64,000 bases of DNA from Elusimicrobiota bacterium (GTDB lineage Bacteria; Elusimicrobiota; Elusimicrobia; UBA1565; JACRDR01). The notes under the pieces were generated by a model. That model was not told the DNA's origin. It saw nothing but the letters and a program-made list of their open reading frames with translations, and searched no databases. Within the stretch, counting starts at the first letter, position 1. Each line of letters begins with the position of its first letter. Where the stretch lies: NCBI GenBank assembly GCA_041694815.1, contig JBGFSC010000021.1, forward strand, positions 1-64,000, in the 5' to 3' direction. Below, piece after piece: positions 1-54,771 of the stretch. Made by a program: the position numbers and the translations under genes.

Positions 1-127
1 TGTCACGAATTCGCGTTCTGTCAGGGAGTGCTTGCGCCTCATTCTTTTTAATTCTTTAAACGACATCCAACAGATTTCTCGTTCTTTCGGTAGGTGGTAA
101 CGATGTGCCCGACGAGTTCTATCCAAA

Positions 128-168
128 TAGGCCCTTAGGCCCCCGGCGGCATAGGCCTTTCGCACCTG
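128..168. promoter_or_regulatory. Tandem GGNCC-N3-GGNCC-type palindromic motif (site A)
   Basis: TAGGCCCTTAGGCCC at 128 and TAGGCCTTTCGCACC at 152, 24 bp apart, upstream of CDS 202. Confidence 0.55.
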
Positions 169-201
169 TAAAAAAGCCTGACGCGGGCCCACCCTTAGGG
201 C

Positions 202-1410
202 ATGAGCGCCATCAAACGCCTGGCCGCGGTACTGACCGCGGCGGCGGTCCTACCCCCCTTCGCCCTCGGGGACGATTCATTCGACAAGCTTCACGCCAAT
301 CCGCGCGAGGCGGTGGTCAATTACGAGGGAGTCAAGGTCAGCGGCCGGGCGGCCATGTACTATAAGGAAGTCCACCGCATGGCCGACGAGCTCAAGTCCC
401 GGGGGCTCGACCTTCGGGAGAGCCTCGACGTCATGGACGACAGCTACGCCGCGGTGTGGGCCAAACTCAGCGTCATCGAAGCCGTCTCCAAGAGCCGTAA
501 CGTCGACCGGCATAACACCCATCTCGAGCAGACCCTGATGTGGGTCGACGGCGTGATGCGCGATCGCGGCAGAAACGTCGCCATCCATACCCATCAGGTC
601 TTTTTCCACCACGCCAAGAACCCCCAGTCCGAGATCAACGAGGGCATCCGCCGCATGGGCAAGACAATCGAAGAGCTCGTCGAGAACCTGGGGAGCGGCG
701 GCAAGGCGGAGGAGAAGCTCGGGAGAATCGACGAGGTGATCCTGGGATTCGACACGCGCGGGCATGAGCCGATCAAACAGTACTTGAAGGGCCAGGAGCT
801 GCAGATCGCCGCAAAGCACGGAAAGCGTTTTCGTTTCGTCTACGTCGACGAGCTCGTCCGGGTCCCTTCGGATACGCAGGCGATGCGCGCCGAGCTCAAC
901 GCCCTGACGGCGCGCTACCGGGGCCAGGGCCTGCAGAAGATCATCGAGGGAGTCATCTACAGCCGCTACGTGGGGGTTCTGCTCGAACTCAAATCCATCG
1001 AATACTTCCTCCAACGGGGCTATGCCGTGCTTCAAAGCGGGCGCGAGCTCTTCGACGCCGAGGGGATGTATATCACCGAGTTGGACGCGGTGGTGCGCGG
1101 CCCCGAGGGCCGAATCGGGATCGTCGAGGCCAAGTCGGCGCGGGTACCGATCCCCCTGGAGCAGGCGTTGGCCGACAAGGTCCTCTACAAGCTCGAGACC
1201 TACGCCAAGCACCGCGCGGCTCTGGAGTCCGCCGTCGGATCCAAGCTCGACGATGTTTTCTTCACCTTCGACGTGGGCTGCGACAACGAGGCGCTGCCGC
1301 CTTTTCTCTCCAGGCGCGAATCGGAGCTTTCGAAGCAATACGCCCTAAATGTCAAGTTCCTTTTCCTGCACAGCGATCCGCAGCCCTGCGCCGAAGCCCG
1401 CCGTCGTTGA
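202..1410 (+). CDS. Exported hypothetical protein with a C-terminal PD-(D/E)XK nuclease-like motif
   Basis: 402-aa ORF; N-terminal signal peptide (MSAIKRLAAVLTAAAVLPPFALG); motif ELDAVV...GIVEAKS. Confidence 0.65.
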   Translation: MSAIKRLAAVLTAAAVLPPFALGDDSFDKLHANPREAVVNYEGVKVSGRAAMYYKEVHRMADELKSRGLDLRESLDVMDDSYAAVWAKLSVIEAVSKSRNVDRHNTHLEQTLMWVDGVMRDRGRNVAIHTHQVFFHHAKNPQSEINEGIRRMGKTIEELVENLGSGGKAEEKLGRIDEVILGFDTRGHEPIKQYLKGQELQIAAKHGKRFRFVYVDELVRVPSDTQAMRAELNALTARYRGQGLQKIIEGVIYSRYVGVLLELKSIEYFLQRGYAVLQSGRELFDAEGMYITELDAVVRGPEGRIGIVEAKSARVPIPLEQALADKVLYKLETYAKHRAALESAVGSKLDDVFFTFDVGCDNEALPPFLSRRESELSKQYALNVKFLFLHSDPQPCAEARRR

Positions 1411-1431
1411 TTATTGTATAATCCGCTCGTT

Positions 1432-1504
1432 GAGCCCGTAGCTCAGTTGGTAGAGCACCTGACTTTTAATCAGGTTGTCGTGGGTTCGAGTCCCACCGGG
1501 CTCA
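1432..1504 (+). tRNA. tRNA-Lys(UUU)
   Basis: Canonical cloverleaf; anticodon arm CCTGA-CTTTTAA-TCAGG; GTTCGAG T-loop; TATAAT at 1417-1422 upstream. Confidence 0.97.
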
Positions 1505-1526
1505 ATGTTTCTGTATCCGGTCTTCC

Positions 1527-1598
1527 GGCCCTATCGTCTATCGGCTAGGACGCGTCCCTTTCAAGGACGAAAGAGGGGTTCGACTCCCCTTAGGGCCA
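1527..1598 (+). tRNA. tRNA-Glu(UUC)
   Basis: Acceptor GGCCCTA/TAGGGCC; anticodon arm CGTCC-CTTTCAA-GGACG. Confidence 0.95.
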
Positions 1599-1616
1599 TT
1601 CTTAACCGTCTATCAG

Positions 1617-1644
1617 GGAACTAATTCTTTGCTCGTTCGTATAT
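1617..1644 (+). promoter_or_regulatory. Putative ECF-sigma promoter of atypical tRNA 1
   Basis: GGAACT(1617-1622)-N15-CGTATAT(1638-1644); same boxes and spacing at 2952-2925 on the minus strand. Confidence 0.65.
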
Positions 1645-1654
1645 TAATTAGACC

Positions 1655-1725
1655 TGCGGGGTAGTTCAACGGTAGAACGGTCGACCGTCAATCGGACAAT
1701 GTGGGTTCGACTCCCACCCCCGCAG
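1655..1725 (+). tRNA. Atypical tRNA, anticodon GUC (Asp) on a tRNA-Asn-like body
   Basis: Acceptor TGCGGGG/CCCCGCA, G73; D arm GTTC/GAAC; T arm GTGGG-TTCGACT-CCCAC; loop CCGTCAA has C33 instead of U33; weak anticodon stem. Confidence 0.8.
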
Positions 1726-1731
1726 CGTCCA

Positions 1732-1771
1732 GAAAGCCGCAATTTCCGTAACGGTCGATATTGCGGCTTTC
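1732..1771 (+). other. Trailer hairpin of atypical tRNA 1
   Basis: GAAAGCCGCAAT/ATTGCGGCTTTC 12-bp inverted repeat with a 16-nt loop partly complementary to the anticodon arm. Confidence 0.75.
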
Positions 1772-1778
1772 GGCCTTC

Positions 1779-1807
1779 TTGACCACTATAGAAGAGTCTG
1801 CTAAGCT
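1779..1807 (+). promoter_or_regulatory. Sigma70-type promoter of small RNA 1
   Basis: TTGACC-N17-TAAGCT with TG extended -10. Confidence 0.7.
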
Positions 1808-1813
1808 ATTGCT

Positions 1814-1868
1814 GACGGTCGACTTGTTGAACTACCGGGCCCCGGGCAACCGGGGCCTTCGTTTTTCT
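1814..1868 (+). ncRNA. Small RNA antisense to atypical tRNA 1
   Basis: 1813-1823 complements tRNA 1680-1690; 1826-1836 complements tRNA 1660-1670; ends in GGCCCCGG-GCAA-CCGGGGCC plus T-tract terminator. Confidence 0.75.
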
Positions 1869-1964
1869 GTGGCGAATAGCGTGCCTTACTCCGGACGCAG
1901 CGATTTCCGGCTGCGACCCAATGCCTTCAGACAGTTGTATAATGACGGGTCGCAGCGCCCAGGC

Positions 1965-2312
1965 ATGGACATCCGACTCGTTAAAACGCCCATCCCCTTT
2001 TCGGAAGTCGCGCAATTCGCCAAAAGCCAGTTCGGCGAAATGATCAAGGCGACGGTCGACGTCCAACGGGCGGTATTGGCCCTCGGGGGAGAGCTCCATT
2101 CCGACGAGGAGGCCCTATTGATCGAGGACGGCTCCAGGCAAGAGGATCTCTGGGGAATCAACATTTACCCGGAACAGTCCGGAGAGGATCGAGTCGAATT
2201 CGACTCGATGATCAACGTCAGGCCCTCGCAAAATAACCGCTCCCGCGGCGTGGAGAACGCCGAAACGAGGGCGCGCATCCTGGAAATCGTCGGCCGACTG
2301 CTCCTCTCCTGA
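1965..2312 (+). CDS. DUF5674-like hypothetical protein
   Basis: Recognised motifs KATVDV...GGELHSD.E..L...GS.QEDLWGINIYP...FDSMINVRPSQNNRSR; ATG at 1965; TATAAT about 22 nt upstream. Confidence 0.75.
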   Translation: MDIRLVKTPIPFSEVAQFAKSQFGEMIKATVDVQRAVLALGGELHSDEEALLIEDGSRQEDLWGINIYPEQSGEDRVEFDSMINVRPSQNNRSRGVENAETRARILEIVGRLLLS

Positions 2313-2635
2313 TGGCCCAGCACGCGGACTTGGCGGCGGGCCGTTGGGCGACGCTCTCCTTACTGGAGCAGATGGGAAATATCGGAAGCGAGATTAGCCG
2401 GGCCCGGCGTTGGCAGTCGAGGGACCCGAAGCTTTTCGACGGCGCGATGATACGCGCGCTCGAATTGCTGGACCTGTCCATCGGCGACCCTCGCTGGCGG
2501 CGCCGACTCAAGGAGTTGCTGCGGGCCCGGGAGCTGCTCTGCGACGCCTGGCTCGGCGGCATGGAATATCAAACGGATCTAGAAGGGCTGGACCGCTACT
2601 TCTTCCACTTCGCCGTTGCGGCCAGGAACTCCTGA
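2312..2635 (+). CDS. Small helical hypothetical protein, partner of the DUF5674-like gene
   Basis: 107 aa, TGATG-coupled; motif RW..LSLLEQMGNIGSEISRA. Confidence 0.75.
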   Translation: MAQHADLAAGRWATLSLLEQMGNIGSEISRARRWQSRDPKLFDGAMIRALELLDLSIGDPRWRRRLKELLRARELLCDAWLGGMEYQTDLEGLDRYFFHFAVAARNS

Positions 2636-2651
2636 GCTAAGGGGCGTAATC

Positions 2652-2708
2652 AAAACTAAGAAGGGCTTCGGTTTTCCCGAAGCCCTCGGTCGTCTAAGGC
2701 TGCCTCTC
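2652..2708 (-). ncRNA. Small RNA antisense to atypical tRNA 2
   Basis: TTGAGAGGCAGC (2710-2699) and TTAGACGAC (2697-2689) complement tRNA segments 2889-2878 and 2908-2900; ends in AGGGCTTCGG-GAAAA-CCGAAGCCCT plus T-rich tail. Confidence 0.75.
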
Positions 2709-2714
2709 AATGCT

Positions 2715-2742
2715 AGTTTAGCAGATCGCCCACATAAGTCAA
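2715..2742 (-). promoter_or_regulatory. Sigma70-type promoter of small RNA 2
   Basis: TTGACT-N16-TAAACT with TG extended -10; shares TCTGCTAARCT with the promoter at 1797-1807. Confidence 0.7.
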
Positions 2743-2796
2743 TATTTTTAATAGGGCGAGTGCTCTGTGCCGTGAACAGACTCGAAGATGGCAGTC

Positions 2797-2837
2797 GGAA
2801 CCGATCAATCTGCCCCCTTACAGCCATGATCGGCTCC
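2797..2837 (-). other. Trailer hairpin of atypical tRNA 2
   Basis: GGAGCCGATCA/TGATCGGTTCC 11-bp stem (one GU) with a 19-nt loop near-complementary to the anticodon arm. Confidence 0.7.
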
Positions 2838-2843
2838 ATAAGG

Positions 2844-2913
2844 CTGGGAGGCCGGGATTCGAACCCGGATAGGCTGTTTGAGAGGCAGCTGTCTTACCGT
2901 TAGACGACTCCCA
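2844..2913 (-). tRNA. Atypical tRNA, anticodon CUC (Glu) on a tRNA-Gln-like body
   Basis: TGGGAG-TC-GTCT-AACGGTA-AGAC-A-GCTGC-CTCTCAA-ACAGC-CTAT-CCGGG-TTCGAAT-CCCGG-CCTCCCA-G; 5' acceptor strand one nt short; C:A mismatch closes the anticodon stem. Confidence 0.78.
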
Positions 2914-2924
2914 GACCCACCTCG

Positions 2925-2952
2925 ATATACGAATAACTCCGCAAAAAGTTCC
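2925..2952 (-). promoter_or_regulatory. Putative ECF-sigma promoter of atypical tRNA 2
   Basis: GGAACT-N15-CGTATAT on the minus strand. Confidence 0.65.
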
Positions 2953-2976
2953 ATCCTCTCGTTGCGTCTGAGCCAA

Positions 2977-3059
2977 TAGGTCCTTAGGCCTATCTTCTGG
3001 TAGGCCCTTTCCCTTAGCTTCTTTTCCCTAAAGGCCCCTGCCCCTGGGCCCCGCGTACC
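2977..3059. promoter_or_regulatory. Tandem GGNCC-N3-GGNCC-type motif (site B)
   Basis: TAGGTCCTTAGGCCTA at 2977, TAGGCCCTTT at 3001, two weaker units about 22 bp further on; TACTAT at 3063. Confidence 0.55.
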
Positions 3060-3072
3060 GCATACTATCGAC

Positions 3073-5367
3073 ATGAAAATAAGAATCCACTTCCTGTTTA
3101 TATTCGGCTCCCTTTTATTCGGCCTTCTGCAACGCGGCGACGCCCTAGTCCCAAAGACCTGCAACGATGAATTCGCTCGCGGCGTCCGCGCGGGCGCCAA
3201 TACGCTACTTGCATTTAATGTTTCTGGAGAGGAGATATACAACGCGTTTGCCAGCGGAACTCAAATTGAATTTGACCTAGAAAGACAGTATGGCCTTCCC
3301 GAGCATATCCGTCAAAGTCTGCCCGCCGTCTTTGTGATGGCGCTGCACGATGACGAATATTACCAAGGGGTACTACGGTGCCTCGATGCGAAGGGCTATA
3401 AGACCGATAATCTCGTCGCATGGGTTAAAAAATATCGGGATTACACCACCTCGGCGGAAATCAAACAACGCTTGGAGGAGTTGAAGCACCTTCAAGCGCC
3501 AAAAATCGCCGACGTAGCCTTTGATGGTCGCCATCTGACTGCTGAGGAGGCAGCGGCCGTGGCCGCAGGCGCCGAGGGTGGTAAAACACCGAGCCTAAAC
3601 GAATTCTCAATCGACCTGACTTCCATGGCCGCCCAGGGGAAGCTCGACCCGATCGAGGGCAGAAAGAACGAAATCAAGGCATTGGTCCAGATCCTGCTCC
3701 GCCGCAGCAAGCCCAACGCCGTGTTGATCGGCGAGCCGGGAGTCGGCAAGACCGCCATCGTCGAGGGCCTCGCCCAGAAGATCGCCGCCGGCGAGATCCC
3801 GGAACTTGCCGGAAAGCGCGTGATGCAGCTCAACATCGGAGCGCTCATCGCGGGGACGAAATACCGCGGGGAATTCGAAGAACGGGTGCAGAATATCATG
3901 AAGGAACTTAAGGCCAGCCCGGACACCATCGTGTTCATCGATGAGTTCCACACCATCATGGGCGCCGGCGCCGCGGAGGGCGCCGTCGACATCTCCAACC
4001 TGCTTAAGCCAGCGATGGCCCGCGGGGAGATCCAGATCATCGGCGCGACAACCTTGGACGAATTCCGCCGCTTCGTCGAGAAGGATGGGGCCTTGGCTCG
4101 GCGCGTGGAAGGGGTGCGGGTGGACGCCCCGACGCCCGAAGATACCCTCGCGATTCTTAAGCGCCTCAAACCGAATTACGAAAAGCACCACAAGGTGAGC
4201 TACAGCGACGCCGCGCTGGAGGCCGCCGCCCGCACGGCTCCCCGCTACCTGCCGCAGCGGCAGCTGCCCGACAGCGCCATCGACCTGATGGACAAGGCGG
4301 GAAGCCTCGCGCGCACCGCTAAAAAAACCGTAGTCGAAGAGGAGGATATACTGGCCATCCTCGCGCAGATGACCGGAATTCCGGTCGACAAGCTCAGCGT
4401 CGACGAGCAGGAACGGCTGGTCCGCATGGAGGAGCACCTGCGCAAGCGGGTCAAGGGGCAGGAACACGTGATCAAGGCGGTTTCGGAAGCGGTCCGGAGG
4501 GCTTATGCGGGGCTGCGGGTCTCGCAGGGCCCCTTGGCCAGTTTCGTCTTCTTGGGACCCACCGGCGTCGGGAAAACGGAGCTCGCGAAAGCCCTGGCCG
4601 AATTCCTTTTCGGCACGGAAAAGGCGCTTATCCGCGAGGACTTGACGAATTACATGGAGCAACATTCCGTCTCAAAGCTTATCGGCTCGCCTCCCGGCTA
4701 CGTCGGCTACGAGGACGCTCCCTTTACCGAGCGGGTGCGCCAGAAGCCGTTTTCGGTCATCCTGCTCGACGAGCTCGACAAGGCGCATCCCGCGGTGCTC
4801 AACATCCTGCTCCCGGTATTAGACGACGGACATCTGACGGACAGCCATGGCAAGACCGTCGATTTCAAGAACACGATCATCATCATGACCTCCAATCATA
4901 TGAGCCAGGCCTTTTTCGCGAAGAAGACGAAATCAGTGGGCTTCCAAAAAGCCGAGCCCCCCGCGCCGCCTAAGGCGGCAAGCAAGGAAGCGATCGTGGC
5001 CGGCTTTAAGAGTTTCCTTAAACCCGAGCAGTTTAACCGCATCGACGAGGTCGTCGTGTTCAATACCTTGACGCCGGAGATACTCGAGTCCATCCTGGAC
5101 CAAATGATCTCGTCGTTCGTCGCGGAGCTGGAGAAAACGAAGAAGGTCCGCTTAGAAGTGAGCCCGCAGGCGCGGGCATTCCTTATCCAACAGGGCTACG
5201 ACCCCGAATTGGGCGCCCGACCAATGCGCCGGGCGATCCAGACCCAGCTTCTGACGCCGCTGTCGATGGAGATCCTAAAGCCCAAGCACGGCTCGCATCT
5301 TGTCGCCAAGCTCTCGGAGGACGGCGGCAGGATCGTGGTCGTCAGCACGGATGGAGGGCGTCAATGA
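3073..5367 (+). CDS. ClpA/ClpC-type double AAA+ ATPase with a signal peptide and non-canonical N-domain
   Basis: Walker A GEPGVGKT and GPTGVGKT; Walker B FIDEFH and LLDELDK; pore loops KYRG and GYVG; SVGF loop; GARPMRR; no M-domain. Confidence 0.92.
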   Translation: MKIRIHFLFIFGSLLFGLLQRGDALVPKTCNDEFARGVRAGANTLLAFNVSGEEIYNAFASGTQIEFDLERQYGLPEHIRQSLPAVFVMALHDDEYYQGVLRCLDAKGYKTDNLVAWVKKYRDYTTSAEIKQRLEELKHLQAPKIADVAFDGRHLTAEEAAAVAAGAEGGKTPSLNEFSIDLTSMAAQGKLDPIEGRKNEIKALVQILLRRSKPNAVLIGEPGVGKTAIVEGLAQKIAAGEIPELAGKRVMQLNIGALIAGTKYRGEFEERVQNIMKELKASPDTIVFIDEFHTIMGAGAAEGAVDISNLLKPAMARGEIQIIGATTLDEFRRFVEKDGALARRVEGVRVDAPTPEDTLAILKRLKPNYEKHHKVSYSDAALEAAARTAPRYLPQRQLPDSAIDLMDKAGSLARTAKKTVVEEEDILAILAQMTGIPVDKLSVDEQERLVRMEEHLRKRVKGQEHVIKAVSEAVRRAYAGLRVSQGPLASFVFLGPTGVGKTELAKALAEFLFGTEKALIREDLTNYMEQHSVSKLIGSPPGYVGYEDAPFTERVRQKPFSVILLDELDKAHPAVLNILLPVLDDGHLTDSHGKTVDFKNTIIIMTSNHMSQAFFAKKTKSVGFQKAEPPAPPKAASKEAIVAGFKSFLKPEQFNRIDEVVVFNTLTPEILESILDQMISSFVAELEKTKKVRLEVSPQARAFLIQQGYDPELGARPMRRAIQTQLLTPLSMEILKPKHGSHLVAKLSEDGGRIVVVSTDGGRQ

Positions 5368-6095
5368 GCGCGCTAAAGGCCGTGTCGCTCGCGATATTTC
5401 TGGCGTCGAGCCTCACCATGCCGGGATTCTCCCAATTCGAAGGTGATGTGATCAATATTCCACTTATACTTACGCCGGAAGAAGAATTTACCCTAGCCAT
5501 GAAGCGCTGGTTACGGGGGCGTGATATTCCCATCGTCAATCCTCCCGAAGAATTGATCGGTGTCTGGAATCTCAGCGCCCAGATATGGAGGATCCGAAGC
5601 AAGCACGAGCGTTCAGGAGACTTTCCTACGGAACGGGAAGAAGGTTCCACTCTCATCAGCCAGCACTGGGGCTGCCTGCGCTTCGTTCCCGCTCGGCACC
5701 CGGGAAACTTGACGGATCAAAATCGGTACGTTCAAGTCGGCGTCGGTTCCAACCTGGTCCCGAATCGCGACCTCGGGCGCAACGAATTTTTCAGTAACCT
5801 GACCGGAACGCGCTACGATTGCGGCGAGCATCTTAGCTTCGCCACGAACTTTGTCCCGAACAGCATCGATGACGCCTGGAGGAACCTTTTTATTTTCTCG
5901 GTGCCCGGTGACGAGATGAGGTTCGGCTGCCGCTTCCTCTCGGAATCCCAAGAGCGCATCGGCTGCCTCGTCAATTATCGCAACGGCACGCACGGGATCG
6001 TCGAATACGTGCGCGAGCAGCCCGGCGAAAAGGCCGCGCGTCGCGGCAGAAGCAGCAACTTCCTGCGGGTCCACCCCGACTGGCAGCCCGAATAA
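5364..6095 (+). CDS. Exported hypothetical protein
   Basis: 243 aa, ATGA overlap with the clp gene, N-terminal signal peptide. Confidence 0.65.
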   Translation: MSALKAVSLAIFLASSLTMPGFSQFEGDVINIPLILTPEEEFTLAMKRWLRGRDIPIVNPPEELIGVWNLSAQIWRIRSKHERSGDFPTEREEGSTLISQHWGCLRFVPARHPGNLTDQNRYVQVGVGSNLVPNRDLGRNEFFSNLTGTRYDCGEHLSFATNFVPNSIDDAWRNLFIFSVPGDEMRFGCRFLSESQERIGCLVNYRNGTHGIVEYVREQPGEKAARRGRSSNFLRVHPDWQPE

Positions 6096-6109
6096 ACTAT
6101 AATGGCGGC

Positions 6110-6820
6110 ATGCCGCCATTGCGCGTCATCATTTGCGGGGCCCTGGGCCGCATGGGCGGCCGGGTCGCGGCCTTGGCCCAGGAAGACTCCCGTTTCGCCG
6201 TGGTCGCCGGGGTCGTCTCTTATCTTCCCGCCAACCCTCGCGCCCTTTTTCCCCTTTTGACGGAGAAAGAATTGCCCGCGCAGCTTCCCGGCGCGGATAT
6301 GCTCATCGATTTCACCTCCCCCGCGGCCAGCGCGCGCTTCGCGCGCCTGGCGGCCAAGGCGAAGACCCCCATCGTCATCGGCACGACGGGCTTAAGTTCC
6401 GCCCAGCTTTCCCTCCTTCGCCAGGCCTCCCGCAAAACCGCCGTATTCCTCTCTCCCAATTTCAGCCCCGGGATGAATGTGGTTTTCCAACTCGCGCGCA
6501 TCGCCGGAGCGGCCCTGCCGGCCTGGGACGCCTCGCTCCATGAGATCCATCACTCCGCCAAAAAGGACGCTCCCAGCGGCACCGCGCTCCGCCTGGCCGA
6601 GTCCGCGCGTCCCAAAGGGAAGGCTCCCATCGTCAGCGAGCGCGCAGGCGACATCGTGGGCGATCATACCCTGACCCTCGCCGGCCCATTCGAGCGACTC
6701 GAGCTCGTCCACCGGGCCCAGTCCCGCGACGTGTTCGCCCAGGGGGCCCTGTCGGCGGCCCTATGGCTGCGCGGGCGCCGCCCGGGCCTTTACGGCATGC
6801 AGGACATGCTCCGGTTATGA
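6110..6820 (+). CDS. dapB: 4-hydroxy-tetrahydrodipicolinate reductase
   Basis: GALGRMG, IDFT, VIGTTG, EIHHSAKKDAPSGTA motifs. Confidence 0.96.
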   Translation: MPPLRVIICGALGRMGGRVAALAQEDSRFAVVAGVVSYLPANPRALFPLLTEKELPAQLPGADMLIDFTSPAASARFARLAAKAKTPIVIGTTGLSSAQLSLLRQASRKTAVFLSPNFSPGMNVVFQLARIAGAALPAWDASLHEIHHSAKKDAPSGTALRLAESARPKGKAPIVSERAGDIVGDHTLTLAGPFERLELVHRAQSRDVFAQGALSAALWLRGRRPGLYGMQDMLRL

Positions 6821-7194
6821 GCCGCTTATCGGATTCGGCCCGTAAGACCCTGCGCCGGCTCGATGAACTGCTCCAAGAGGATCCCCGGGAACCGATCTAC
6901 GACCCCGTGCATCTGGGCGCTGCCGTCGCCATCACGATGGCCGCCCTGGGCTGCCTGTACTGGCTGCTCTGGACCCTGCTGGTCTACGAGGGCGGGATCT
7001 TCCTGAAGATCCGGGCGCTGGCCCGCCTGTTATTCACCCCGACGACCCTCAAGGATCTAGGCTACGAGGGCATGCCTTACGCGATGGGCGCATTCGAGGG
7101 TTGGGTAGGCAACGTCGGCGCGCTCGTTTTCGCTATCGCCTTCGTATGGGCCCTTCGAAACCTCTATCGCCGCGCCCAGTCGCGCGCGCGGTGA
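6817..7194 (+). CDS. Small membrane protein
   Basis: ATGA overlap with dapB; two hydrophobic segments. Confidence 0.7.
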   Translation: MSRLSDSARKTLRRLDELLQEDPREPIYDPVHLGAAVAITMAALGCLYWLLWTLLVYEGGIFLKIRALARLLFTPTTLKDLGYEGMPYAMGAFEGWVGNVGALVFAIAFVWALRNLYRRAQSRAR

Positions 7195-7640
7195 TCCGGC
7201 CAGAACAATCCTGCATCCTCGCACTCGGCTCCAATCTCGGCGACCGTGAACGCGCCCTCCGCAAGGCCCTGCGCTGGATTTCCCGCCTCCCCGGCACCCA
7301 TCTAGAACGCGTCTCCTCCATCGTCGAATCCAAGCCGCTGGGAGGAAAGCGCCAGCGGGATTATCTTAACTGCTGCGCCCTGATCAAGACCCGCCTATCT
7401 CCCATGGGCCTGCTGGTGGAACTCAAGCGCCTGGAGGCACGGGCGGGACGCAGGCCCGCGCCCCGCTGGTCTTCGCGGCCGCTCGACATCGACCTCATCG
7501 CCTACGGCCGCCGGCGCATCCGCTCCCGGTTTCTGACCATCCCCCACCCGGGCGCCATGCGCCGTGACTTCGTGCGCGGGCCTCTTTGCGAACTGGGCCG
7601 GCAAAGTGTTACAATTCTTCGTCGTGGCGCGAACCGATAA
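7191..7640 (+). CDS. folK: 2-amino-4-hydroxy-6-hydroxymethyldihydropteridine diphosphokinase
   Basis: LALGSNLGDR, RPLDIDLI, LTIPHP motifs; GTG start overlapping the previous stop. Confidence 0.93.
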   Translation: MIRPEQSCILALGSNLGDRERALRKALRWISRLPGTHLERVSSIVESKPLGGKRQRDYLNCCALIKTRLSPMGLLVELKRLEARAGRRPAPRWSSRPLDIDLIAYGRRRIRSRFLTIPHPGAMRRDFVRGPLCELGRQSVTILRRGANR

Positions 7641-8460
7641 AGTCACCACCTCCCGGCTCACCGAGATGAAGCAGAAGGGTCAGCGCATCAGCGCGCTGAC
7701 CGCCTACGACGCGCCGACAGCCGCCCTCCTGAACGAGGCCGGCGTCGACGTGATCCTCGTGGGCGACTCCGTGGGCAACGTCAAGCTGGGCTACGAAAAT
7801 ACCCTCCCCGTGACGATTGAGGAGATGCTCCACCACGTCAAGGCGGTCAAGCGGGGCAATTCCAGGGCGCTTTTGGTCGCCGACCTGCCCTACCTCTCCT
7901 ACGAGCTCGATCTGAAGGAGGCGGCGCGAAACGCCGGGCGCCTTGTCAAGGAAGGAGGCGCCGAGGCGGTCAAGCTCGAGGGGGGTCTTGAGGTGGCTCC
8001 CGTGATTAAAGAGCTGCTCCGCGTCAACATCCCCGTGATGGGACATCTCGGCCTGACCCCGCAGGCGATCCATCGCCTGGGCGGCTACAAGGTGCAGGGC
8101 CGCCGGCCGCAGGAGGCCGAGAAGATGCTCACCGACGCGCGCGTGCTCGAGGGCTCCGGCGTCTTCGCCCTCGTGCTCGAGTGCGTCCCCGAGGGGCTCG
8201 CCCGCGAGATCACGCGCAAGCTGCCGGTGCCGACCATCGGCATCGGCGCCGGCGCCGAGTGCGACGGGCAGGTGCTCGTCGTCGACGACATGCTCGGGCT
8301 CTCGCCGCAGCCGACCGCCAAGTTCGTCAAGCGCTTCGCCGAGCTCCGTCCCCTCGCGCTCAAGGCCGCGCAACAGTACGTCGCCGAGGTGCAAAACGGC
8401 GGCTTCCCCGCCCCCGAGCACAGCTACGCGAGCCCGTCGACCAAACTCAGCGAACGTTGA
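7624..8460 (+). CDS. panB: 3-methyl-2-oxobutanoate hydroxymethyltransferase
   Basis: LTAYD, ILVGDS, AVKLEGG, GHLGLTPQ, IGIGAG. Confidence 0.97.
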   Translation: MARTDKVTTSRLTEMKQKGQRISALTAYDAPTAALLNEAGVDVILVGDSVGNVKLGYENTLPVTIEEMLHHVKAVKRGNSRALLVADLPYLSYELDLKEAARNAGRLVKEGGAEAVKLEGGLEVAPVIKELLRVNIPVMGHLGLTPQAIHRLGGYKVQGRRPQEAEKMLTDARVLEGSGVFALVLECVPEGLAREITRKLPVPTIGIGAGAECDGQVLVVDDMLGLSPQPTAKFVKRFAELRPLALKAAQQYVAEVQNGGFPAPEHSYASPSTKLSER

Positions 8461-11570: not shown

Positions 11571-12364
11571 TGCGCTTAAGCGCCGCCATTCTGGCGGCCG
11601 CCCTCTCTTACCCCCTGCTCGCTGGCGCTGAGGAAAACGTTACGGCGGAGGAGCAGGCCACGACGGCTGGAGAGATGTTCACCGGCCCCGGGACCAAGGA
11701 CGCCGCTGCCGCGGTCCGAACATCGGCCGTGTCCGCTCCCCGCTCGGCGTCATTGGCCGACGGCGCGACGCCCGCTTCCATAAAAAAGGCTGTGCCGCCT
11801 CCGAAGCGAAGCAGCGCGCCGCAAAAAAGCGGCCCCCGAAAAATCGCGGGCGCGATGCTAGCCGCTCTTTTGGCCGTCGGCCTGCTGACCGGCTGCGGGA
11901 GCCTCGCGGCGGCGCCTCCCAAGCTCGACCCGTGCGACGTGAGCATAGCCGCGGTGCACAAGGTCGAATATTCCGTCCATAGCGCTGGCATCGCCGCGCG
12001 CTCGGCGGACACGATCGTCAAGCGCGGGGGCACGGAGGAGCCCGTGCCCGGCGTGAACGTGCTCTACGAGATCATCGGCGACGCCTACGCCAAGAACAAC
12101 GACGCCCACGTGGCCGTCGAGGAGGCCGAGTGGGCGGCGCCCGAATGCGGCCCCGAGGCCGTCTCGGCCGTCGAGAAGGCCAAGGACGCCCTGGCCAAGG
12201 CCGACGCCGCGATCGAGTCCATCGATACGGCGTTGAGTCTCAAGGACATCAATCCTCCGAAGGCGAAGGAGGAGCTCCAGATCGCGATGGAATTCTCCAA
12301 GACCAGCTCCGCCCAGGCGGACGCGCTCAAGCAAGAAGCCGGGAAGATCCCGGTCCGGGTATGA
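11570..12364 (+). CDS. Exported protein with an internal lipobox-like segment (paralog 1)
   Basis: Signal peptide, Pro/Ser/Ala linker, ALLAVGLLTGC, helical Cys-pair domain. Confidence 0.75.
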   Translation: MRLSAAILAAALSYPLLAGAEENVTAEEQATTAGEMFTGPGTKDAAAAVRTSAVSAPRSASLADGATPASIKKAVPPPKRSSAPQKSGPRKIAGAMLAALLAVGLLTGCGSLAAAPPKLDPCDVSIAAVHKVEYSVHSAGIAARSADTIVKRGGTEEPVPGVNVLYEIIGDAYAKNNDAHVAVEEAEWAAPECGPEAVSAVEKAKDALAKADAAIESIDTALSLKDINPPKAKEELQIAMEFSKTSSAQADALKQEAGKIPVRV

Positions 12365-13179
12365 TGAGAAAAGCCCCCCTCCTGCTCGCCGCCCTGCTGC
12401 TTGCGCCCACAAGCGCGTTTTCGGCCGAAAAGGATATCGAAAAAGAGCGCGTGGCCGCCGGCGCGATGTTCACCGGAGAAGCGGCGCGTCCGGACGCGCC
12501 GCAGGCGCTTCTTCCCTCGGCGGGACCGGCATCCCCGGCGGCGCTTTCCTCCGGAAGGCCGAGCGGCTCGCAGGCCGTCTCCTCCGTGCCGCCGCCGCAG
12601 GCCCCGGGCGCTCCCAGCGCCAGCAAGGGCGGGTTACGAAGGCTCTTCGGACTGGCCGCGGCGGCGCTATTGGCCGTCGGATTATTGACCGGCTGCGGAC
12701 AAGGGTTGCGCCCGCAGTTCCAGCTCAATCCCTGCCAGGTCAGCTCCGCCGCGGTCACCAAGACGATTTATGCCGTCAGCAGCGCCTCGACGGCGGCCCG
12801 CGTGACCAAAACGCTTATCAAGCATATGGCGCCGGAGTGGGACGGCATGCCCGACCAGCTCTATTACCGGATGGTTCAGGAGGCCTTCGCGAGAAACCAC
12901 GAGGCCCATCTGGCCGTCGATTACGCCTCCAAGGTGGCCGCCGATTGCGGCCCGGAGGCCGTTGAAGCGATCGAAAGCGCTAAGGAGGCGCTCGCCCAAA
13001 CCGACGCGGCCTTCAACGCCACCGCCCGCGCCTACGATATGGCCCTGACCCGCTCCTATGATCCGGCGCACCAGGAGTGGGCCTACAACGAGCTTAAGCC
13101 CGCGCTCGAGTTCGCCCAGAAAAGCCACGAGGTTTCCCAGGACCTCGAGCAGGCCGCCGCGAAGATCCCGCCGAAATAA
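12361..13179 (+). CDS. Exported protein with an internal lipobox-like segment (paralog 2)
   Basis: Shares AGxMFTG, VPPP, ALLAVGLLTGCG, PCxVS, CGPEAV, AxKIP with paralog 1. Confidence 0.75.
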   Translation: MMRKAPLLLAALLLAPTSAFSAEKDIEKERVAAGAMFTGEAARPDAPQALLPSAGPASPAALSSGRPSGSQAVSSVPPPQAPGAPSASKGGLRRLFGLAAAALLAVGLLTGCGQGLRPQFQLNPCQVSSAAVTKTIYAVSSASTAARVTKTLIKHMAPEWDGMPDQLYYRMVQEAFARNHEAHLAVDYASKVAADCGPEAVEAIESAKEALAQTDAAFNATARAYDMALTRSYDPAHQEWAYNELKPALEFAQKSHEVSQDLEQAAAKIPPK

Positions 13180-13316
13180 ACGGCAGCTTTTACGCGCTTT
13201 GGGCGCGTTGCTTGGCGCCTGCGGCGCCAAGCTTGGAATGCTCGCGAGAAACCTCGAACTTGGTCGCGCGAAGCGCGACCAAGTCACGCGCCCGAGGCGC
13301 GTAAAAGTCGCCGTTT
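13178..13316. repeat. REP-like palindromic element, inverted pair
   Basis: AAACGGCAGCTTTTACGCGC...GCGCGTAAAAGTCGCCGTTT enclosing four hairpins; related copies at 19813, 45116, 60694. Confidence 0.85.
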
Positions 13317-53759: not shown

Positions 53760-54771
53760 TGGTGCCAGGCATCCACTTTCTACACTTTCTCAACTTTTGG
53801 AACTTTTAGGCCTCCTCATTCGTACTTGAGGTATGGGCCGCCAACCGAGACTGCATTTCCCCGGAGCTATCTTCCATGTGAGCGCCCGCGGCAATGGACG
53901 ACAGACTATCTTTTTTGATTCTCAAGACTGGAACAAGTTTCTTGATATTCTAGGCGAATTAAAACGAATCCGTCCCTTCAAGCTTTACGCTTACTGCCTT
54001 ATGGGCAATCATATCCATTTGCTGATCGAACCTTCTGGTCCCAAATTGTCCCTAATTATGGGCTTATTACTTGCGCGTTATGCCAAGTACCTTAACGCCA
54101 GATTTAAGCGCAACGGGCATGTTTTTCAGAATCGATTTCATGCGCGTCTTTGTGGAAAAGACTCTTATTTCCAACAAGTCATCCGATATATTCATTTAAA
54201 TCCCGTAGAGGCGGGACTTGCCGATGAACCGTCACGGTGGCCGTACTCGGGACACCTGGAATATCTCGGAAAATCTACCCGCCATCTTATCGATCAGGAA
54301 CAGCTTTTATCAATGTTGGGCTCTGATATTAGAACGGCACGGGCCGCCTATAGCCAATTTGTCTTGGGTGCGTTAAAAGACGATTATCTTTCTGTGGGCG
54401 AGACCGAGGACTTATCCAACGCTCGCGAATCTGACATTCACTTTAAAGCCGTCCAAGTCCATGTTAACGAGAAAAGTCTAGATGAAATTTGCGCGGAATT
54501 TAAGCCGATCTCATTGGAAATACTGCGAAGCTCGAGCAAGGTACGGACGGTTTGTCGCGCTCGACATCGTTTTATCGCCTGTGCTTTTGCGGCAGGCTAT
54601 TCGCTCACTGAAGTCGCGGCCTATCTTGGATTATCTTTGTCTGCGGTTTCAAAAGCACTAAACACCAAAGAACCTAAGGCTTGCCTGAGATCAGCTAATC
54701 GAATTTATGTGGACGACGGCAGGCAGCTATTAGAAAGTCAATAAAGTGTAGAAAGTGGATGCCTGGCACCA
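53760..54771. mobile_element. Y1-transposase element bounded by perfect 29-bp inverted repeats
   Basis: TGGTGCCAGGCATCCACTTTCTACACTTT at 53760-53788, reverse complement at 54743-54771; visibly AT-richer than the flanks. Confidence 0.85.
53833..54744 (+). CDS. RAYT-like HUH (Y1) transposase with a C-terminal HTH
   Basis: FHVSARGN, AYCLMGNHIHLL, GHVFQNRF, YIHLNPVEAGL, WPYS. Confidence 0.92.
   Translation: MGRQPRLHFPGAIFHVSARGNGRQTIFFDSQDWNKFLDILGELKRIRPFKLYAYCLMGNHIHLLIEPSGPKLSLIMGLLLARYAKYLNARFKRNGHVFQNRFHARLCGKDSYFQQVIRYIHLNPVEAGLADEPSRWPYSGHLEYLGKSTRHLIDQEQLLSMLGSDIRTARAAYSQFVLGALKDDYLSVGETEDLSNARESDIHFKAVQVHVNEKSLDEICAEFKPISLEILRSSSKVRTVCRARHRFIACAFAAGYSLTEVAAYLGLSLSAVSKALNTKEPKACLRSANRIYVDDGRQLLESQ

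What the first reader, a model, noticed from the sequence alone, without database searches (positions are those of the whole stretch)
2652..2742. Small RNA 2 starts with the cognate codon GAG and clamps tRNA 2 at two sites
Seen on the minus strand: TTGAGAGGCAGC-C-TTAGACGAC, complementary to 12 nt of the anticodon arm and 9 nt at the 5' D-arm of tRNA 2, then a 10-bp terminator hairpin. The G seven nt after the -10 box begins GAG (Glu codon), exactly as in unit 1. It matches the canonical tRNA-Glu(UUC) poorly, suggesting specificity.
Basis: seen in the sequence. Interest (0 to 1): 0.86.

Follow-up and report, generated by a model that had tools for sequence, protein, structure and literature searches.

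The report
Antisense small RNA guarding odd tRNA
A short RNA gene beside an extra, oddly built glutamate tRNA is complementary to that tRNA's anticodon and D arms, and the same tRNA-plus-antisense pair recurs with matching sequence changes in related bacteria, which points to an undescribed RNA-only switch that keeps a possibly miscoding tRNA in check.

Summary
On the minus strand, 2742-2652 holds a sigma-70-like promoter, a 12-nt and a 9-nt block complementary to nt 25-36 and 6-14 of the neighbouring tRNA-Glu(CUC) (2913-2842), then an 11-pair terminator. It is one member of a conserved module. In 30 of 30 related units, from about 17 genomes of one order (probably Elusimicrobiota), an aberrant tRNA behind an ECF-type promoter is followed on the same strand by a small promoter-to-terminator RNA complementary to its own anticodon arm. 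Positions 27-36 are Watson-Crick matched in 27-30 of 30 units although the stem sequences differ (27 distinct), so tRNA and small RNA co-evolve. The two window tRNAs are the only duplicated elongator tRNAs of the genome. They combine acid anticodons (Asp GUC, Glu CUC) with the U1-A72 pair and short D loop otherwise seen only in tRNA-Asn and tRNA-Gln. The genome has GatB, one AspRS and one GluRS, but no AsnRS or GlnRS. My best reading is that a constitutive antisense RNA neutralises a conditionally expressed, potentially harmful (Asp-to-Asn, Glu-to-Gln miscoding) tRNA. Pairing is strongly supported; expression, toxicity and charging are untested. I found nothing like it in Rfam or in seven completed literature searches.

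The parts
2927..2952 (-). ECF-type promoter motif (GGAAC, 16 nt, CGTAT) 13 nt upstream of tRNA 2
   Evidence: Motif scan of the genome. The same motif precedes related odd tRNAs in 17 of 19 units found by BLAST without regard to the promoter. Of the 48 tRNAs of the genome, only the two odd ones have it.
2842..2913 (-). tRNA 2: extra tRNA-Glu(CUC) with U1-A72, G73, 7-nt D loop, 4-nt variable loop, a C31/A39 mismatch, and one base missing in the 5' acceptor strand
   Evidence: ARAGORN. Infernal 45.0 bits with a gap at acceptor position 6. A canonical Glu(CUC) copy lies on contig C54.
2797..2837 (-). Trailer hairpin just 3' of tRNA 2. Its loop carries GGCUGU and GGCAG, which match the two strands of the anticodon stem.
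   Evidence: Fold (z = -1.8 for the whole 99-nt spacer). In relatives, 20 of 30 units carry an exact 7-10-nt antisense block 21-30 nt after the tRNA. In unit 2 the match is only partial (read from the sequence).
2715..2742 (-). Sigma-70-like promoter of small RNA 2 (TTGACT, 16 nt, TAAACT, TG-extended)
   Evidence: An equivalent promoter stands in 24 of 30 related units.
2699..2710 (-). Antisense block 1: complementary to tRNA 2 nt 25-36 (5' strand of the anticodon stem, loop and anticodon); contains the codon GAG
   Evidence: Unique perfect target in the genome. Co-variation.
2689..2697 (-). Antisense block 2: complementary to tRNA 2 nt 6-14 (end of the acceptor stem, nt 8-9, 5' strand of the D stem)
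   Evidence: An equivalent block is present in 15 of 30 units.
2652..2687 (-). Intrinsic terminator of small RNA 2 (hairpin 2687-2661, T-rich tail to 2652)
1617..1642 (+). ECF-type promoter motif of unit 1
1655..1726 (+). tRNA 1: extra tRNA-Asp(GUC) with U1-A72, G73, 7-nt D loop, C33 and a G27/A43 mismatch
   Evidence: (58.7 bits). A canonical Asp copy lies on contig C6.
1732..1772 (+). Trailer hairpin of unit 1, with ACGGTCGA (antisense to tRNA 1 nt 27-34) in its loop
   Evidence: z = -3.7.
1779..1866 (+). Small RNA 1: TTGACC, 17 nt, TAAGCT; block TGACGGTCGAC (1813-1823; tRNA 1 nt 26-36); block GTTGAACTACC (1826-1836; nt 6-16); terminator 1837-1858 and T run
   Evidence: (terminator). The consensus scan did not list this promoter, because its -10 is weaker.

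Best explanation
Small RNA 2 is a real, independently transcribed RNA of about 55 nt. Its single-stranded 5' end base-pairs with the neighbouring extra tRNA-Glu(CUC). Contact probably starts at the exposed anticodon (codon GAG against CUC) and runs into the 5' strand of the weakened anticodon stem. A second segment captures the 5' strand of the D stem. The tRNA is thereby unfolded and its anticodon hidden, so it can be neither charged nor used on the ribosome. The pair is one copy of an RNA-only two-gene module: an aberrant tRNA driven by an ECF-type (alternative sigma) promoter, and an antisense RNA driven by a housekeeping-type promoter. I read it as an antidote-and-poison, or threshold, device. 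The constitutive small RNA soaks up the tRNA unless the tRNA is strongly induced or the small RNA decays. The tRNA is probably harmful when free because it is a chimera. It has an acid anticodon on a body carrying the marks (U1-A72, short D loop) that make bacterial GatCAB amidate the attached amino acid. In this organism, which lacks AsnRS and GlnRS, it should therefore put Gln at GAG codons (and unit 1 Asn at GAC/GAU). Shown here: the complementarity, its co-variation, the motifs, the tRNA anatomy and the enzyme inventory. Inferred: transcription, binding in the cell, charging, amidation and toxicity.
For: The pairing is real and selected. In 30 of 30 units chosen only by promoter motif plus a tRNA call, the 300 nt downstream on the same strand hold an exact complement of the unit's own anticodon arm (7-15 nt, mean 11.8). 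The mean for 870 non-cognate pairs is 6.3, and for 25 of 30 tRNAs no foreign region beats the cognate one. The anticodon is covered in 30 of 30 units and nt 28-36 in 24 of 30, with 27 distinct stem strands. Positions 27, 30, 31 and 33 vary, yet are Watson-Crick matched in 27-28 of 30 units with 3-4 pair types each, against 0.26-0.52 for swapped partners. Controls with the reversed or opposite strand reach 7 at most.

It looks like an independent gene. A sigma-70-like promoter stands in 24 of 30 units, ending 3-7 nt before the block in 23 of those 24. All 30 have a GC hairpin and T run. An orphan copy with its own promoter and terminator lies on contig C19. In a genome-wide scan, 3 of the 5 promoter-complement-terminator sites were the three small RNAs aimed at the odd tRNAs.

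Specificity is shown.

The tRNA is extra and aberrant. Only Asp-GUC and Glu-CUC are duplicated among the elongator tRNAs. In the family, the anticodon stem is fully paired in 9 of 30 units against 44 of 46 canonical tRNAs, and position 33 is not U in 11 of 30 against 0 of 46.

Chimera argument. In this genome U1-A72 occurs only in tRNA-Asn, the two tRNA-Gln and the two odd tRNAs. U1-A72 is present in 23 of 26 acid-anticodon members against 1 of 4 others. GatB scores 573 bits. There is no GlnRS or AsnRS above cut-off, and one AspRS and one GluRS. The abstracts of PMC1635274 and PMC2811023 state that bacterial GatCAB is promoted by U1-A72 and blocked by G1-C72 plus an extra D-loop base.

Different promoters. 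The GGAAC...CGTAT motif occurs at 33 sites in the genome, including in front of an ECF-type sigma gene.

Decay pattern like that of poison genes. The tRNA is damaged while the small RNA is kept: one base is missing in tRNA 2, an insertion of about 65 nt sits in a G010 copy, and there is the orphan small RNA.
Against: No transcript, start site or abundance is known. Promoters and terminators are consensus matches only.

The 30 units are relatives, so counts overstate independence.

Not all members fit the amidation idea. Four carry Gly, Ser or Val anticodons. Three acid-anticodon members lack a clear U1-A72 (two have C1-G72, one is ambiguous). Position 33 is C in tRNA 1 and in 10 of 30 units, which should weaken decoding. 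The base before position 1 can pair with base 73 in 25 of 30 units (13 of 46 canonical tRNAs), which might change 5' processing and recognition. U1-A72 may simply be inherited from a tRNA-Gln-like ancestor.

tRNA 2 itself has a defective acceptor stem and may be inactive.

Flanking genes are mostly ordinary metabolic genes. Only the G010 array lies beside a ParE-type toxin module, so an 'addiction island' setting is not general.

If the tRNA transcript reads through its trailer into the small-RNA terminator, both RNAs would be made 1:1 and induction could not outrun the antidote.

Folded, modified tRNAs resist invasion, and the energy figures ignore tertiary structure.
Confidence: 0.5

Rival explanations
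1. Regulated stress tRNA, not a poison. The odd tRNAs serve a useful purpose when the alternative sigma factor is active, for example deliberate recoding or supply of an aminoacyl-tRNA to a non-ribosomal process. The small RNA only sets a threshold and sharpens the switch.
For: The tRNA promoters belong to a motif family that also precedes an ECF-type sigma gene and competence-type genes (ComEC, ComM/YifB, a ComF-like protein). The module is kept in about 17 genomes. Flanks are ordinary chromosomal genes.
Against: Distribution is patchy within the order: 12 of 60 genomes by the strict pattern. Copy number varies from 1 to 5. Some tRNA copies are damaged while their small RNAs stay intact. There is no conserved protein partner that could use such a tRNA.
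Confidence: 0.2
2. Uncharged decoy tRNA. The odd tRNA cannot be aminoacylated or processed normally. It acts by occupying ribosomal A sites at frequent codons, or by triggering the stringent response, causing growth arrest. The small RNA is its antidote.
For: The family's anticodons read common codons: GAG ranks 3, GGC 2, GUC 9 and GAC 10 in long ORFs of this genome. This fits the Gly and Val members better than the amidation idea does. Structural oddities (pairing of base -1 with 73, C33, mismatched stems, a Ser anticodon on a short-variable-loop body) are listed.
Against: G73 is kept in 24 of 30 units, and G10 in all but one by my reading of the D stems printed. With the anticodon, these are recalled AspRS identity marks; their retention is not expected for an RNA selected to stay uncharged. 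AGC (the Ser member) ranks only 26, and the commonest codon, GCC, is never used.
Confidence: 0.12
3. Maturation device. The antisense segments (trailer hairpin loop and small RNA) act on the precursor to guide or delay processing or folding of an unstable tRNA, not to inactivate it.
For: A second, cis antisense block sits in the loop of a hairpin 21-30 nt after the tRNA in 20 of 30 units. The anticodon stems are weak.
Against: The small RNA has its own promoter in 24 of 30 units, and an orphan copy exists. Pairing would disrupt, not build, the cloverleaf.
Confidence: 0.08
4. The tRNA is the sponge. The small RNA's real targets are mRNAs or the housekeeping tRNAs, and the odd tRNA titrates it.
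For: Small RNA 2 keeps 8+4 nt of complementarity to the housekeeping tRNA-Glu(CUC) (duplex -28.8 kcal/mol).
Against: The seed follows every change of its own partner's stem. That would not be so if a conserved outside target constrained it. There is no other perfect 12-nt target in the genome. Net predicted gain on the housekeeping tRNA is small (-4.4).
Confidence: 0.07
5. Non-functional relic of an inverted partial duplication of the tRNA gene, or chance.
For: The blocks are short. An inverted copy of a tRNA 5' half with a 10-nt deletion would look like this.
Against: 30 of 30 units are affected, with 27 different stems matched. A block of 12 nt arose in 1 of 3000 shuffles. Promoter and terminator are conserved.
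Confidence: 0.03

Closest known systems
Type I toxin-antitoxin systems (hok/sok-type antisense RNA antidotes; recalled, no paper read here)
   Same: A short, constitutively made antisense RNA with its own promoter and terminator sits next to the gene it neutralises by base pairing. There are orphan antidotes and decayed poison genes.
   Different: The target here is a tRNA, not a toxin mRNA. No peptide is involved. The genes are in tandem, not overlapping. Toxicity was not tested.
Type VIII toxin-antitoxin pairs / CreTA (PMC8501985, abstract in the listing)
   Same: RNA-only logic. In CreTA the translation apparatus is hit through a tRNA: the CreT RNA sequesters a tRNA.
   Different: In CreTA the small RNA is the poison that traps a housekeeping tRNA, and the antidote is a CRISPR-like guide acting with Cascade. 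Here the small RNA looks like the antidote, and the trapped tRNA is a private, aberrant copy. No Cas link was seen.
Dual-identity mistranslating tRNAs, tRNA-ProX of Streptomyces and Kitasatospora (PMC11415595, passages read)
   Same: Extra bacterial tRNA genes that combine the body of one identity with the anticodon of another.
   Different: tRNA-ProX has a Pro body with Ala, Asn or Thr anticodons. In the passages I read there is no antisense partner. Here the proposed miscoding runs through GatCAB, and each tRNA has a dedicated small RNA.
T-box riboswitch leaders (Rfam RF00230; knowledge recalled)
   Same: An RNA reads a specific tRNA by pairing a codon with its anticodon.
   Different: No T-box match. 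No downstream gene and no acceptor-end contact. Pairing invades the stems and would unfold the tRNA.
tRNA-precursor spacer sponges such as 3'ETS-leuZ (recalled)
   Same: Interplay between a tRNA transcription unit and small RNAs by base pairing.
   Different: There, a spacer of the precursor traps small RNAs that regulate mRNAs. Here the mature body of the tRNA is the paired partner.
Archaeal box C/D guide RNAs aimed at tRNAs (recalled)
   Same: Two short guide segments complementary to nearby sites of one tRNA.
   Different: No C/D box motifs in the 59-nt sequence (read). This is a bacterium with a terminator-ended RNA, and the guides overlap the anticodon.

Membership tests
tRNA (Rfam RF00005), for tRNA 2 | Cloverleaf scoring above the gathering threshold of 29 bits | tested here: met
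   45.0 bits, E = 3.1e-07, with a gap in the acceptor stem and flagged non-standard pairs. ARAGORN calls Glu(CUC).
Canonical elongator tRNA | U33, a fully paired 5-bp anticodon stem and a 7-bp acceptor stem | tested here: not met
   tRNA 2 has a C31/A39 mismatch and one base missing in the acceptor 5' strand. tRNA 1 has C33 and G27/A43. Among the 46 canonical tRNAs, 46 have U33 and 44 have full stems.
Intrinsically terminated sigma-70 small-RNA gene | -35/-10 hexamers with 16-18-nt spacing, then a GC hairpin and a T run | tested here: met
   (9 of 12 matches, TG-extended; 11-pair hairpin). (z = -4.0). These are consensus matches only.
Intrinsically terminated sigma-70 small-RNA gene | A detectable transcript with defined ends | not testable with these tools
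   No sequencing run was listed for 1400-3000.
Trans-acting antisense RNA with a dedicated target | Complementarity kept through compensatory change in relatives | tested here: met
   Positions 27-36 are matched in 27-30 of 30 units, with 3-4 pair types at the variable positions. Cognate mean 11.8 nt against non-cognate 6.3 nt.
Type I toxin-antitoxin | The target is an mRNA for a small toxic peptide | tested here: not met
   The target is a tRNA gene. The only ORF across the region (2579-2839, minus strand, 86 aa) matches no Pfam family and spans the promoter and terminator.
Type VIII (RNA-RNA) toxin-antitoxin | The RNA partner is toxic when the antisense RNA is absent | not testable with these tools
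   Only indirect hints: an orphan small RNA and damaged tRNA copies.
T-box riboswitch | Match to the T-box model, with a specifier loop and a T-box sequence upstream of a regulated gene | tested here: not met
   No Rfam hit other than tRNA at E <= 1 in window 1-8000, or at E <= 0.1 in nine related loci. The RNA ends at a terminator with no gene behind it.
Box C/D guide RNA | C (RUGAUGA) and D (CUGA) boxes flanking the guides | tested here: not met
   The motifs are absent from the 59-nt sequence printed (read by eye; the motifs are recalled).
GatCAB substrate tRNA (bacterial tRNA-Asn/tRNA-Gln type) | U1-A72 first pair and no extra D-loop base | tested here: met
   tRNA 1 and tRNA 2 have U1-A72 and the 7-nt D loop AACGGUA. 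In this genome U1-A72 is otherwise only in Asn and Gln x2. The rule is taken from the abstracts of PMC1635274 and PMC2811023.
GatCAB substrate tRNA (bacterial tRNA-Asn/tRNA-Gln type) | Is charged with Asp or Glu and then amidated | not testable with these tools
   Only the enzyme inventory is known: GatB present, no AsnRS or GlnRS, a single AspRS and a single GluRS.
ECF sigma-dependent promoter | -35 with AAC and -10 with CGT at about 16-nt spacing, shared by a regulon that includes the sigma gene itself | tested here: inconclusive
   The motif occurs at 33 sites. One precedes a gene with Sigma70_r2 and r4_2 domains. 12 of 22 downstream ORFs start exactly 7 nt after it. The hallmark is recalled, and no binding or expression data exist.

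The most novel reading that the evidence does not exclude
An RNA-only poison-antidote module in which the poison is a chimeric tRNA. It has an acid anticodon (Asp GUC or Glu CUC) on a tRNA-Gln/Asn-type body. In a bacterium that makes Asn and Gln only on tRNA, it would be charged by the non-discriminating synthetase and amidated by GatCAB, rewriting Asp to Asn and Glu to Gln across the proteome. It is switched on by an alternative sigma factor that also heads competence-type genes. It is held in check by a co-evolving small RNA that uses the codon-anticodon contact as a toehold to unfold it.
Probability: 0.25. Interest if true: 0.95.

Novelty: categorically new. Interest (0 to 1): 0.87.

Why it matters
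Small RNAs are known to control mRNAs and to be soaked up by tRNA spacers. A small RNA gene devoted to one private tRNA and co-evolving with it would be a new class of RNA-RNA control, acting directly on the decoding machinery. If the tRNAs are amide-body, acid-anticodon chimeras, this would be a natural, switchable system for proteome-wide Asp-to-Asn and Glu-to-Gln miscoding. That bears on how cells tolerate, use or weaponise mistranslation, and on how the indirect Asn/Gln pathway can be subverted. The pair would also be a ready-made, programmable 'tRNA off-switch' for synthetic biology. The module is small (about 250 nt) and all-RNA, so every step can be tested in vitro.

Tried and rejected
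- **RNA evidence.** The look-up of sequencing runs on 1400-3000 listed no run, and no RNA holder was listed.
- **Promoter-to-T-loop pattern in viral contigs.** ARAGORN called 14 tRNAs in them, 5 with the motif by chance, and none had more than 6 nt of downstream anticodon-arm complement. There is no sign of phage carriage in those rows.
- **Genome-wide 10-mer complement search.** Uninformative, because 10-mers recur by chance. I replaced it with an architecture-aware scan.
- **Link to the DUF5674 gene pair that lies between the two units.** Rejected: 0 of 13 homologous loci in relatives have an odd tRNA within about 1.5 kb.
- **Conserved protein partner.** None. No flanking protein cluster is shared by more than 6 of 30 loci. 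The top clusters look like frames running across the RNA genes, or syntenic neighbours of close relatives. Pfam of 78 flanking ORFs from 24 loci shows mixed metabolic genes.
- **Coding reading of the region.** The 86-aa ORF at 2579-2839 (minus strand) matches no Pfam family.
- **Rfam.** Only tRNA matches; a 23.5-bit BjrC68 match is below threshold.
- **Literature.** Seven full-text searches found no tRNA-targeting small-RNA module. A review of tRNA mistranslation has no occurrence of 'antisense' (find only).
- **Earlier notes of this scan.** Nothing on this stretch or on look-alike stretches.
- **Not done.** The metagenome scan and a covariance model of the small RNA.
Full report
**What is in the window.** ARAGORN finds four tRNA genes. 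Lys(UUU), Glu(UUC) and Asp(GUC) lie on the plus strand at 1431-1726, and Glu(CUC) lies on the minus strand at 2913-2842. Rfam/Infernal agrees, and gives the last one the lowest score (45.0 bits), with a gap in the 5' strand of the acceptor stem.

On the minus strand downstream of that tRNA, the exact-complement search finds two blocks separated by one C:
- TTGAGAGGCAGC (2710-2699), complementary to tRNA nt 25-36;
- TTAGACGAC (2697-2689), complementary to nt 6-14.

The consensus scan puts a sigma-70-like promoter (TTGACT, 16 nt, TAAACT, TG-extended) at 2742-2715. It also places an 11-pair hairpin with a T-rich tail at 2687-2652. The 59-nt RNA folds into an open 5' part and the hairpin (z = -4.0).

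**More than chance.**
- A 12-nt complement to the anticodon arm appeared in 1 of 3000 shuffles of the 300 nt behind the tRNA.
- Among all 48 tRNAs of the genome, the two odd tRNAs of this window have the longest downstream complement (12 and 11 nt). The next is 9, and the mode is 6.
- The 12-nt target exists nowhere else in 2.77 Mb apart from the small-RNA gene's own opposite strand.
- A genome-wide scan for 'promoter, then a complement of at least 9 nt covering an anticodon, then a terminator' kept 5 of 7,437 word hits. Three of the five are small RNA 1, small RNA 2 and a third, orphan copy on contig C19. All three are aimed at the two odd tRNAs.

**The tRNAs are extra and aberrant.** The genome (97.8% complete, 54 contigs) has 48 tRNA genes. 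Besides the usual three CAU genes, only Asp-GUC and Glu-CUC are present twice.
- The copies on contigs C6 and C54 are canonical: G1-C72, large D loops, encoded CCA.
- The window copies have U1-A72, G73, the 7-nt D loop AACGGUA, a 4-nt variable loop and imperfect anticodon stems. tRNA 1 has C at position 33. tRNA 2 lacks one base in the acceptor 5' strand relative to its closest relative scaffold.
- With correct registration, U1-A72 occurs in this genome only in tRNA-Asn, the two tRNA-Gln and these two genes.

**A conserved module.** A BLAST search of 1420-2960 against 41 related genomes (G000 included) picked up similar tRNAs. In the 19 stretches fetched, each such tRNA was followed on the same strand by a complement of its own anticodon arm. 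Laid side by side, the units share one plan:
- an ECF-type motif (GGAAC, about 16 nt, CGTAT) 12-17 nt before the tRNA, in 17 of 19 units, with one variant and one lacking it;
- often a hairpin just after the tRNA whose loop carries a short antisense block;
- a sigma-70-like promoter, then the antisense block at the very start of the predicted transcript;
- often a second block against the D arm;
- a GC hairpin and a T run.

A strict pattern (promoter motif to T loop) searched in 401 genomes of the phylum matched 36 places in 18 genomes. By my reading of the printed matches, 29 places in 12 genomes run into a tRNA. All 12 lie in the window's own order, of which 60 genomes were searched. The other 7 places (six genomes) do not run into a tRNA. 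The reversed-pattern control gave 5 hits in 401 genomes. Adding the BLAST-found units gives about 17 genomes. Two more units came from named records, one titled 'Elusimicrobia bacterium'. Earlier notes of this scan also call this genome Elusimicrobiota (an unchecked label).

**Co-variation.** I collected 30 distinct units, defined only by promoter motif, an ARAGORN call and at least 150 nt of downstream sequence. Their anticodons are GUC 22, CUC 4, GAC 2, GCU 1 and GCC 1.
- All 30 have an exact complement of their own anticodon arm downstream (7-15 nt, mean 11.8). For the 870 swapped pairs the mean is 6.3. For 25 of 30 tRNAs no foreign downstream region beats their own.
- The block covers the anticodon in 30 of 30 units and nt 28-36 in 24 of 30. 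There are 27 different 5' stem strands.
- Position by position, nt 27-36 are Watson-Crick matched in 27-30 of 30 units. At the variable positions 27, 30, 31 and 33 there are three or four pair types, against 26-52% matching with swapped partners. The small RNA even follows the odd C33 and A33.
- The reversed sequence and the opposite strand give at most 7 nt.

The units are relatives, so these counts are not independent events. Even so, the number of different matched stems leaves little room for anything but selection on pairing. The D-arm block is less general: at least 8 of 9 matches in 15 of 30 units, and 6 or fewer in 11 of 30. The proximal cis block (at least 7 nt, 21-30 nt after the tRNA) is present in 20 of 30. 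A sigma-70-like promoter is recognisable in 24 of 30. Its -10 ends 3-7 nt before the block in 23 of those 24, most often 5-6 nt.

In several relatives the block begins exactly with GAC or GAG at that distance. In others it extends 2-5 nt further 5'. A start at the codon is therefore common and plausible, but it is not a rule and was not measured.

**Specificity.** Predicted net gain on binding (cofold minus separate folds):

| Small RNA | Cognate odd tRNA | Other tRNAs |
|---|---|---|
| Small RNA 2 | -14.6 kcal/mol (tRNA 2) | -7.6 next best; -4.4 housekeeping Glu(CUC); 0.0 Glu(UUC) |
| Small RNA 1 | -19.0 (tRNA 1) | -8.3 housekeeping Asp |
| Orphan small RNA | -15.2 (tRNA 1, its best partner) | |

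The predicted complex opens the D and anticodon arms and leaves the T arm intact. These figures ignore tertiary structure and modifications.

**Why the tRNA might be dangerous.** The genome encodes GatB (573 bits), a single bacterial AspRS (716 bits) and a single GluRS (544 bits). It has no GlnRS or AsnRS above the family cut-offs. By established knowledge of the indirect pathway, both synthetases must then be non-discriminating, and Asn and Gln are made on the tRNA.

The abstracts of Bailly et al. 2006 (PMC1635274) and Nakamura et al. 2010 (PMC2811023) state two things. Bacterial GatCAB amidation is promoted by U1-A72. It is prevented by G1-C72 and an extra D-loop base, and the enzyme reads the first pair and the D loop.

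tRNA 1 and tRNA 2 carry exactly these marks together with Asp and Glu anticodons. Their acceptor stems and D loop also resemble this genome's tRNA-Gln(CUG). The simplest prediction is Asn-tRNA reading GAC/GAU and Gln-tRNA reading GAG. Together these codons are about 9% of all codons in long ORFs. In the family, U1-A72 goes with acid anticodons in 23 of 26 members, against 1 of 4 others.

Several points count against this idea:
- There are Gly, Ser and Val members.
- Two acid-anticodon members have C1-G72.
- Position 33 is C in 10 of 30 units.
- The base before position 1 can pair with base 73 in 25 of 30 units, against 13 of 46 canonical tRNAs. From recalled work on RNase P, this could shift 5' processing.
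- Shared ancestry could explain U1-A72.
- tRNA 2 itself has a damaged acceptor stem.

**Regulatory logic.** The GGAAC...CGTAT motif occurs at 33 sites in the genome. Of 22 downstream ORFs of at least 90 aa, 12 begin exactly 7 nt after it, which suggests leaderless transcripts and fixes the likely start point.

Twenty of these ORFs were scanned against Pfam. They include a gene with ECF-type sigma domains (Sigma70_r2, r4_2), ComEC, ComM/YifB, a ComF-like phosphoribosyltransferase, PC4-like and ORF6N proteins, two HNH nucleases, an IS200-like transposase, two XRE regulators, four retropepsin-like proteins, an MT-A70 methyltransferase and SpoVG.

Of the 48 tRNAs, only the two odd ones have the motif. 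The tRNA is thus wired to an alternative sigma factor and the small RNA to the housekeeping one. That is the arrangement expected for a threshold device or an antidote-poison pair. Read-through from the tRNA into the small RNA cannot be excluded.

**Hints of poison-like evolution.**
- An orphan small RNA without a tRNA.
- tRNA 2 with a one-base deletion.
- In G010, a near-identical second Asp unit whose tRNA carries an insertion of about 65 nt in the T arm, while its promoter, hairpin and small RNA are intact.
- In G010 the units alternate with a ParE-type toxin gene (45.7 bits).

Elsewhere the flanks are ordinary genes, and no protein is shared among loci. The module is therefore RNA-only and self-contained. 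The DUF5674 pair lying between the two window units is not linked to it (0 of 13 loci).

**Comparison with what is known.** Rfam 15 has no family for the small RNAs. Seven full-text searches and a look into a 2024 review of tRNA mistranslation (passages only) turned up no small RNA dedicated to a tRNA.

The nearest concepts are:
- type I antisense antidotes (but the target here is not an mRNA);
- RNA-RNA pairs such as CreTA, where a small RNA poison traps a housekeeping tRNA (the roles are reversed here);
- the dual-identity tRNA-ProX genes (no antisense partner in the passages I read);
- T-box leaders (a codon-anticodon reading without unfolding).

The module works like an antisense antidote, but it meets the defining features of none of these families. 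I therefore rate it as a new kind of module, with the caveat that expression and phenotype are untested.

**Verdict.** The anticodon-arm clamp is universal in the family and the D-arm clamp is optional. Confidence that the small RNA evolved to pair with its tRNA is about 0.85-0.9. Confidence that it neutralises a harmful tRNA is about 0.5. Confidence that the harm is Asp-to-Asn and Glu-to-Gln miscoding through GatCAB is about 0.25.

Noticed in passing
Outside the window: G000 contig C19, about 20735-20830, minus strand: A third, orphan anti-tRNA small RNA has its own TTGACA, 17 nt, TATATT promoter and a terminator. No tRNA gene lies upstream (it follows a repetitive protein gene). Its best predicted partner is tRNA 1, with two mismatches in the stem part.
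   Followed up: partly
window 53799-54744 (+), and about 30 other sites in the genome: The ECF-type motif GGAAC, about 16 nt, CGTAT precedes many genes whose start codon lies exactly 7 nt after it (12 of 22), which suggests leaderless mRNAs. The set includes an ECF-type sigma gene, ComEC, ComM/YifB, a ComF-like gene, HNH nucleases, an IS200-like transposase (window 53833-54744), retropepsin-like proteins, MT-A70 and SpoVG. This may be a competence- or mobile-DNA-related regulon.
   Followed up: partly
window 2842-2913 (-): tRNA 2 lacks one G in the 5' acceptor strand compared with the same scaffold in relative G004. This leaves a 6-bp stem with a bulge or a U/C mismatch, so this copy may be hypomorphic or dead.
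   Followed up: partly
L161 (G010:C34) 13068-13207 (-), and 11829-12083 (-): In a tandem array of Ser-, Asp-, Ser- and Asp-type units, one Asp tRNA is split by an insertion of about 65 nt in the T arm, while its promoter, trailer hairpin and small RNA are intact. A ParE_toxin-family gene with an upstream partner sits between units.
   Followed up: partly
L161 10712-10785 and 12476-12550; L162 7549-7621; L118: Sub-types with Ser(GCU) anticodons on a short-variable-loop body, and with Val(GAC) anticodons, have G1-C72. Their small RNAs pair with the anticodon arm plus the variable/T region, or with both strands of the anticodon stem, instead of the D arm.
   Followed up: no
window 1965-2635 (+): A DUF5674 gene (114 bits) and an overlapping 107-aa ORF with no Pfam match lie between the two units. 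Homologous pairs occur in at least 13 relatives, away from any odd tRNA.
   Followed up: partly
window 3073-5367 (+): A ClpA/ClpB-like double-AAA ATPase (764 aa as called) starts with a hydrophobic, signal-peptide-like N-terminus. This is unusual for this family and may reflect a wrong start codon.
   Followed up: no
window 202-1410 (+): A 402-aa ORF upstream of the tRNA cluster matches no Pfam family.
   Followed up: no
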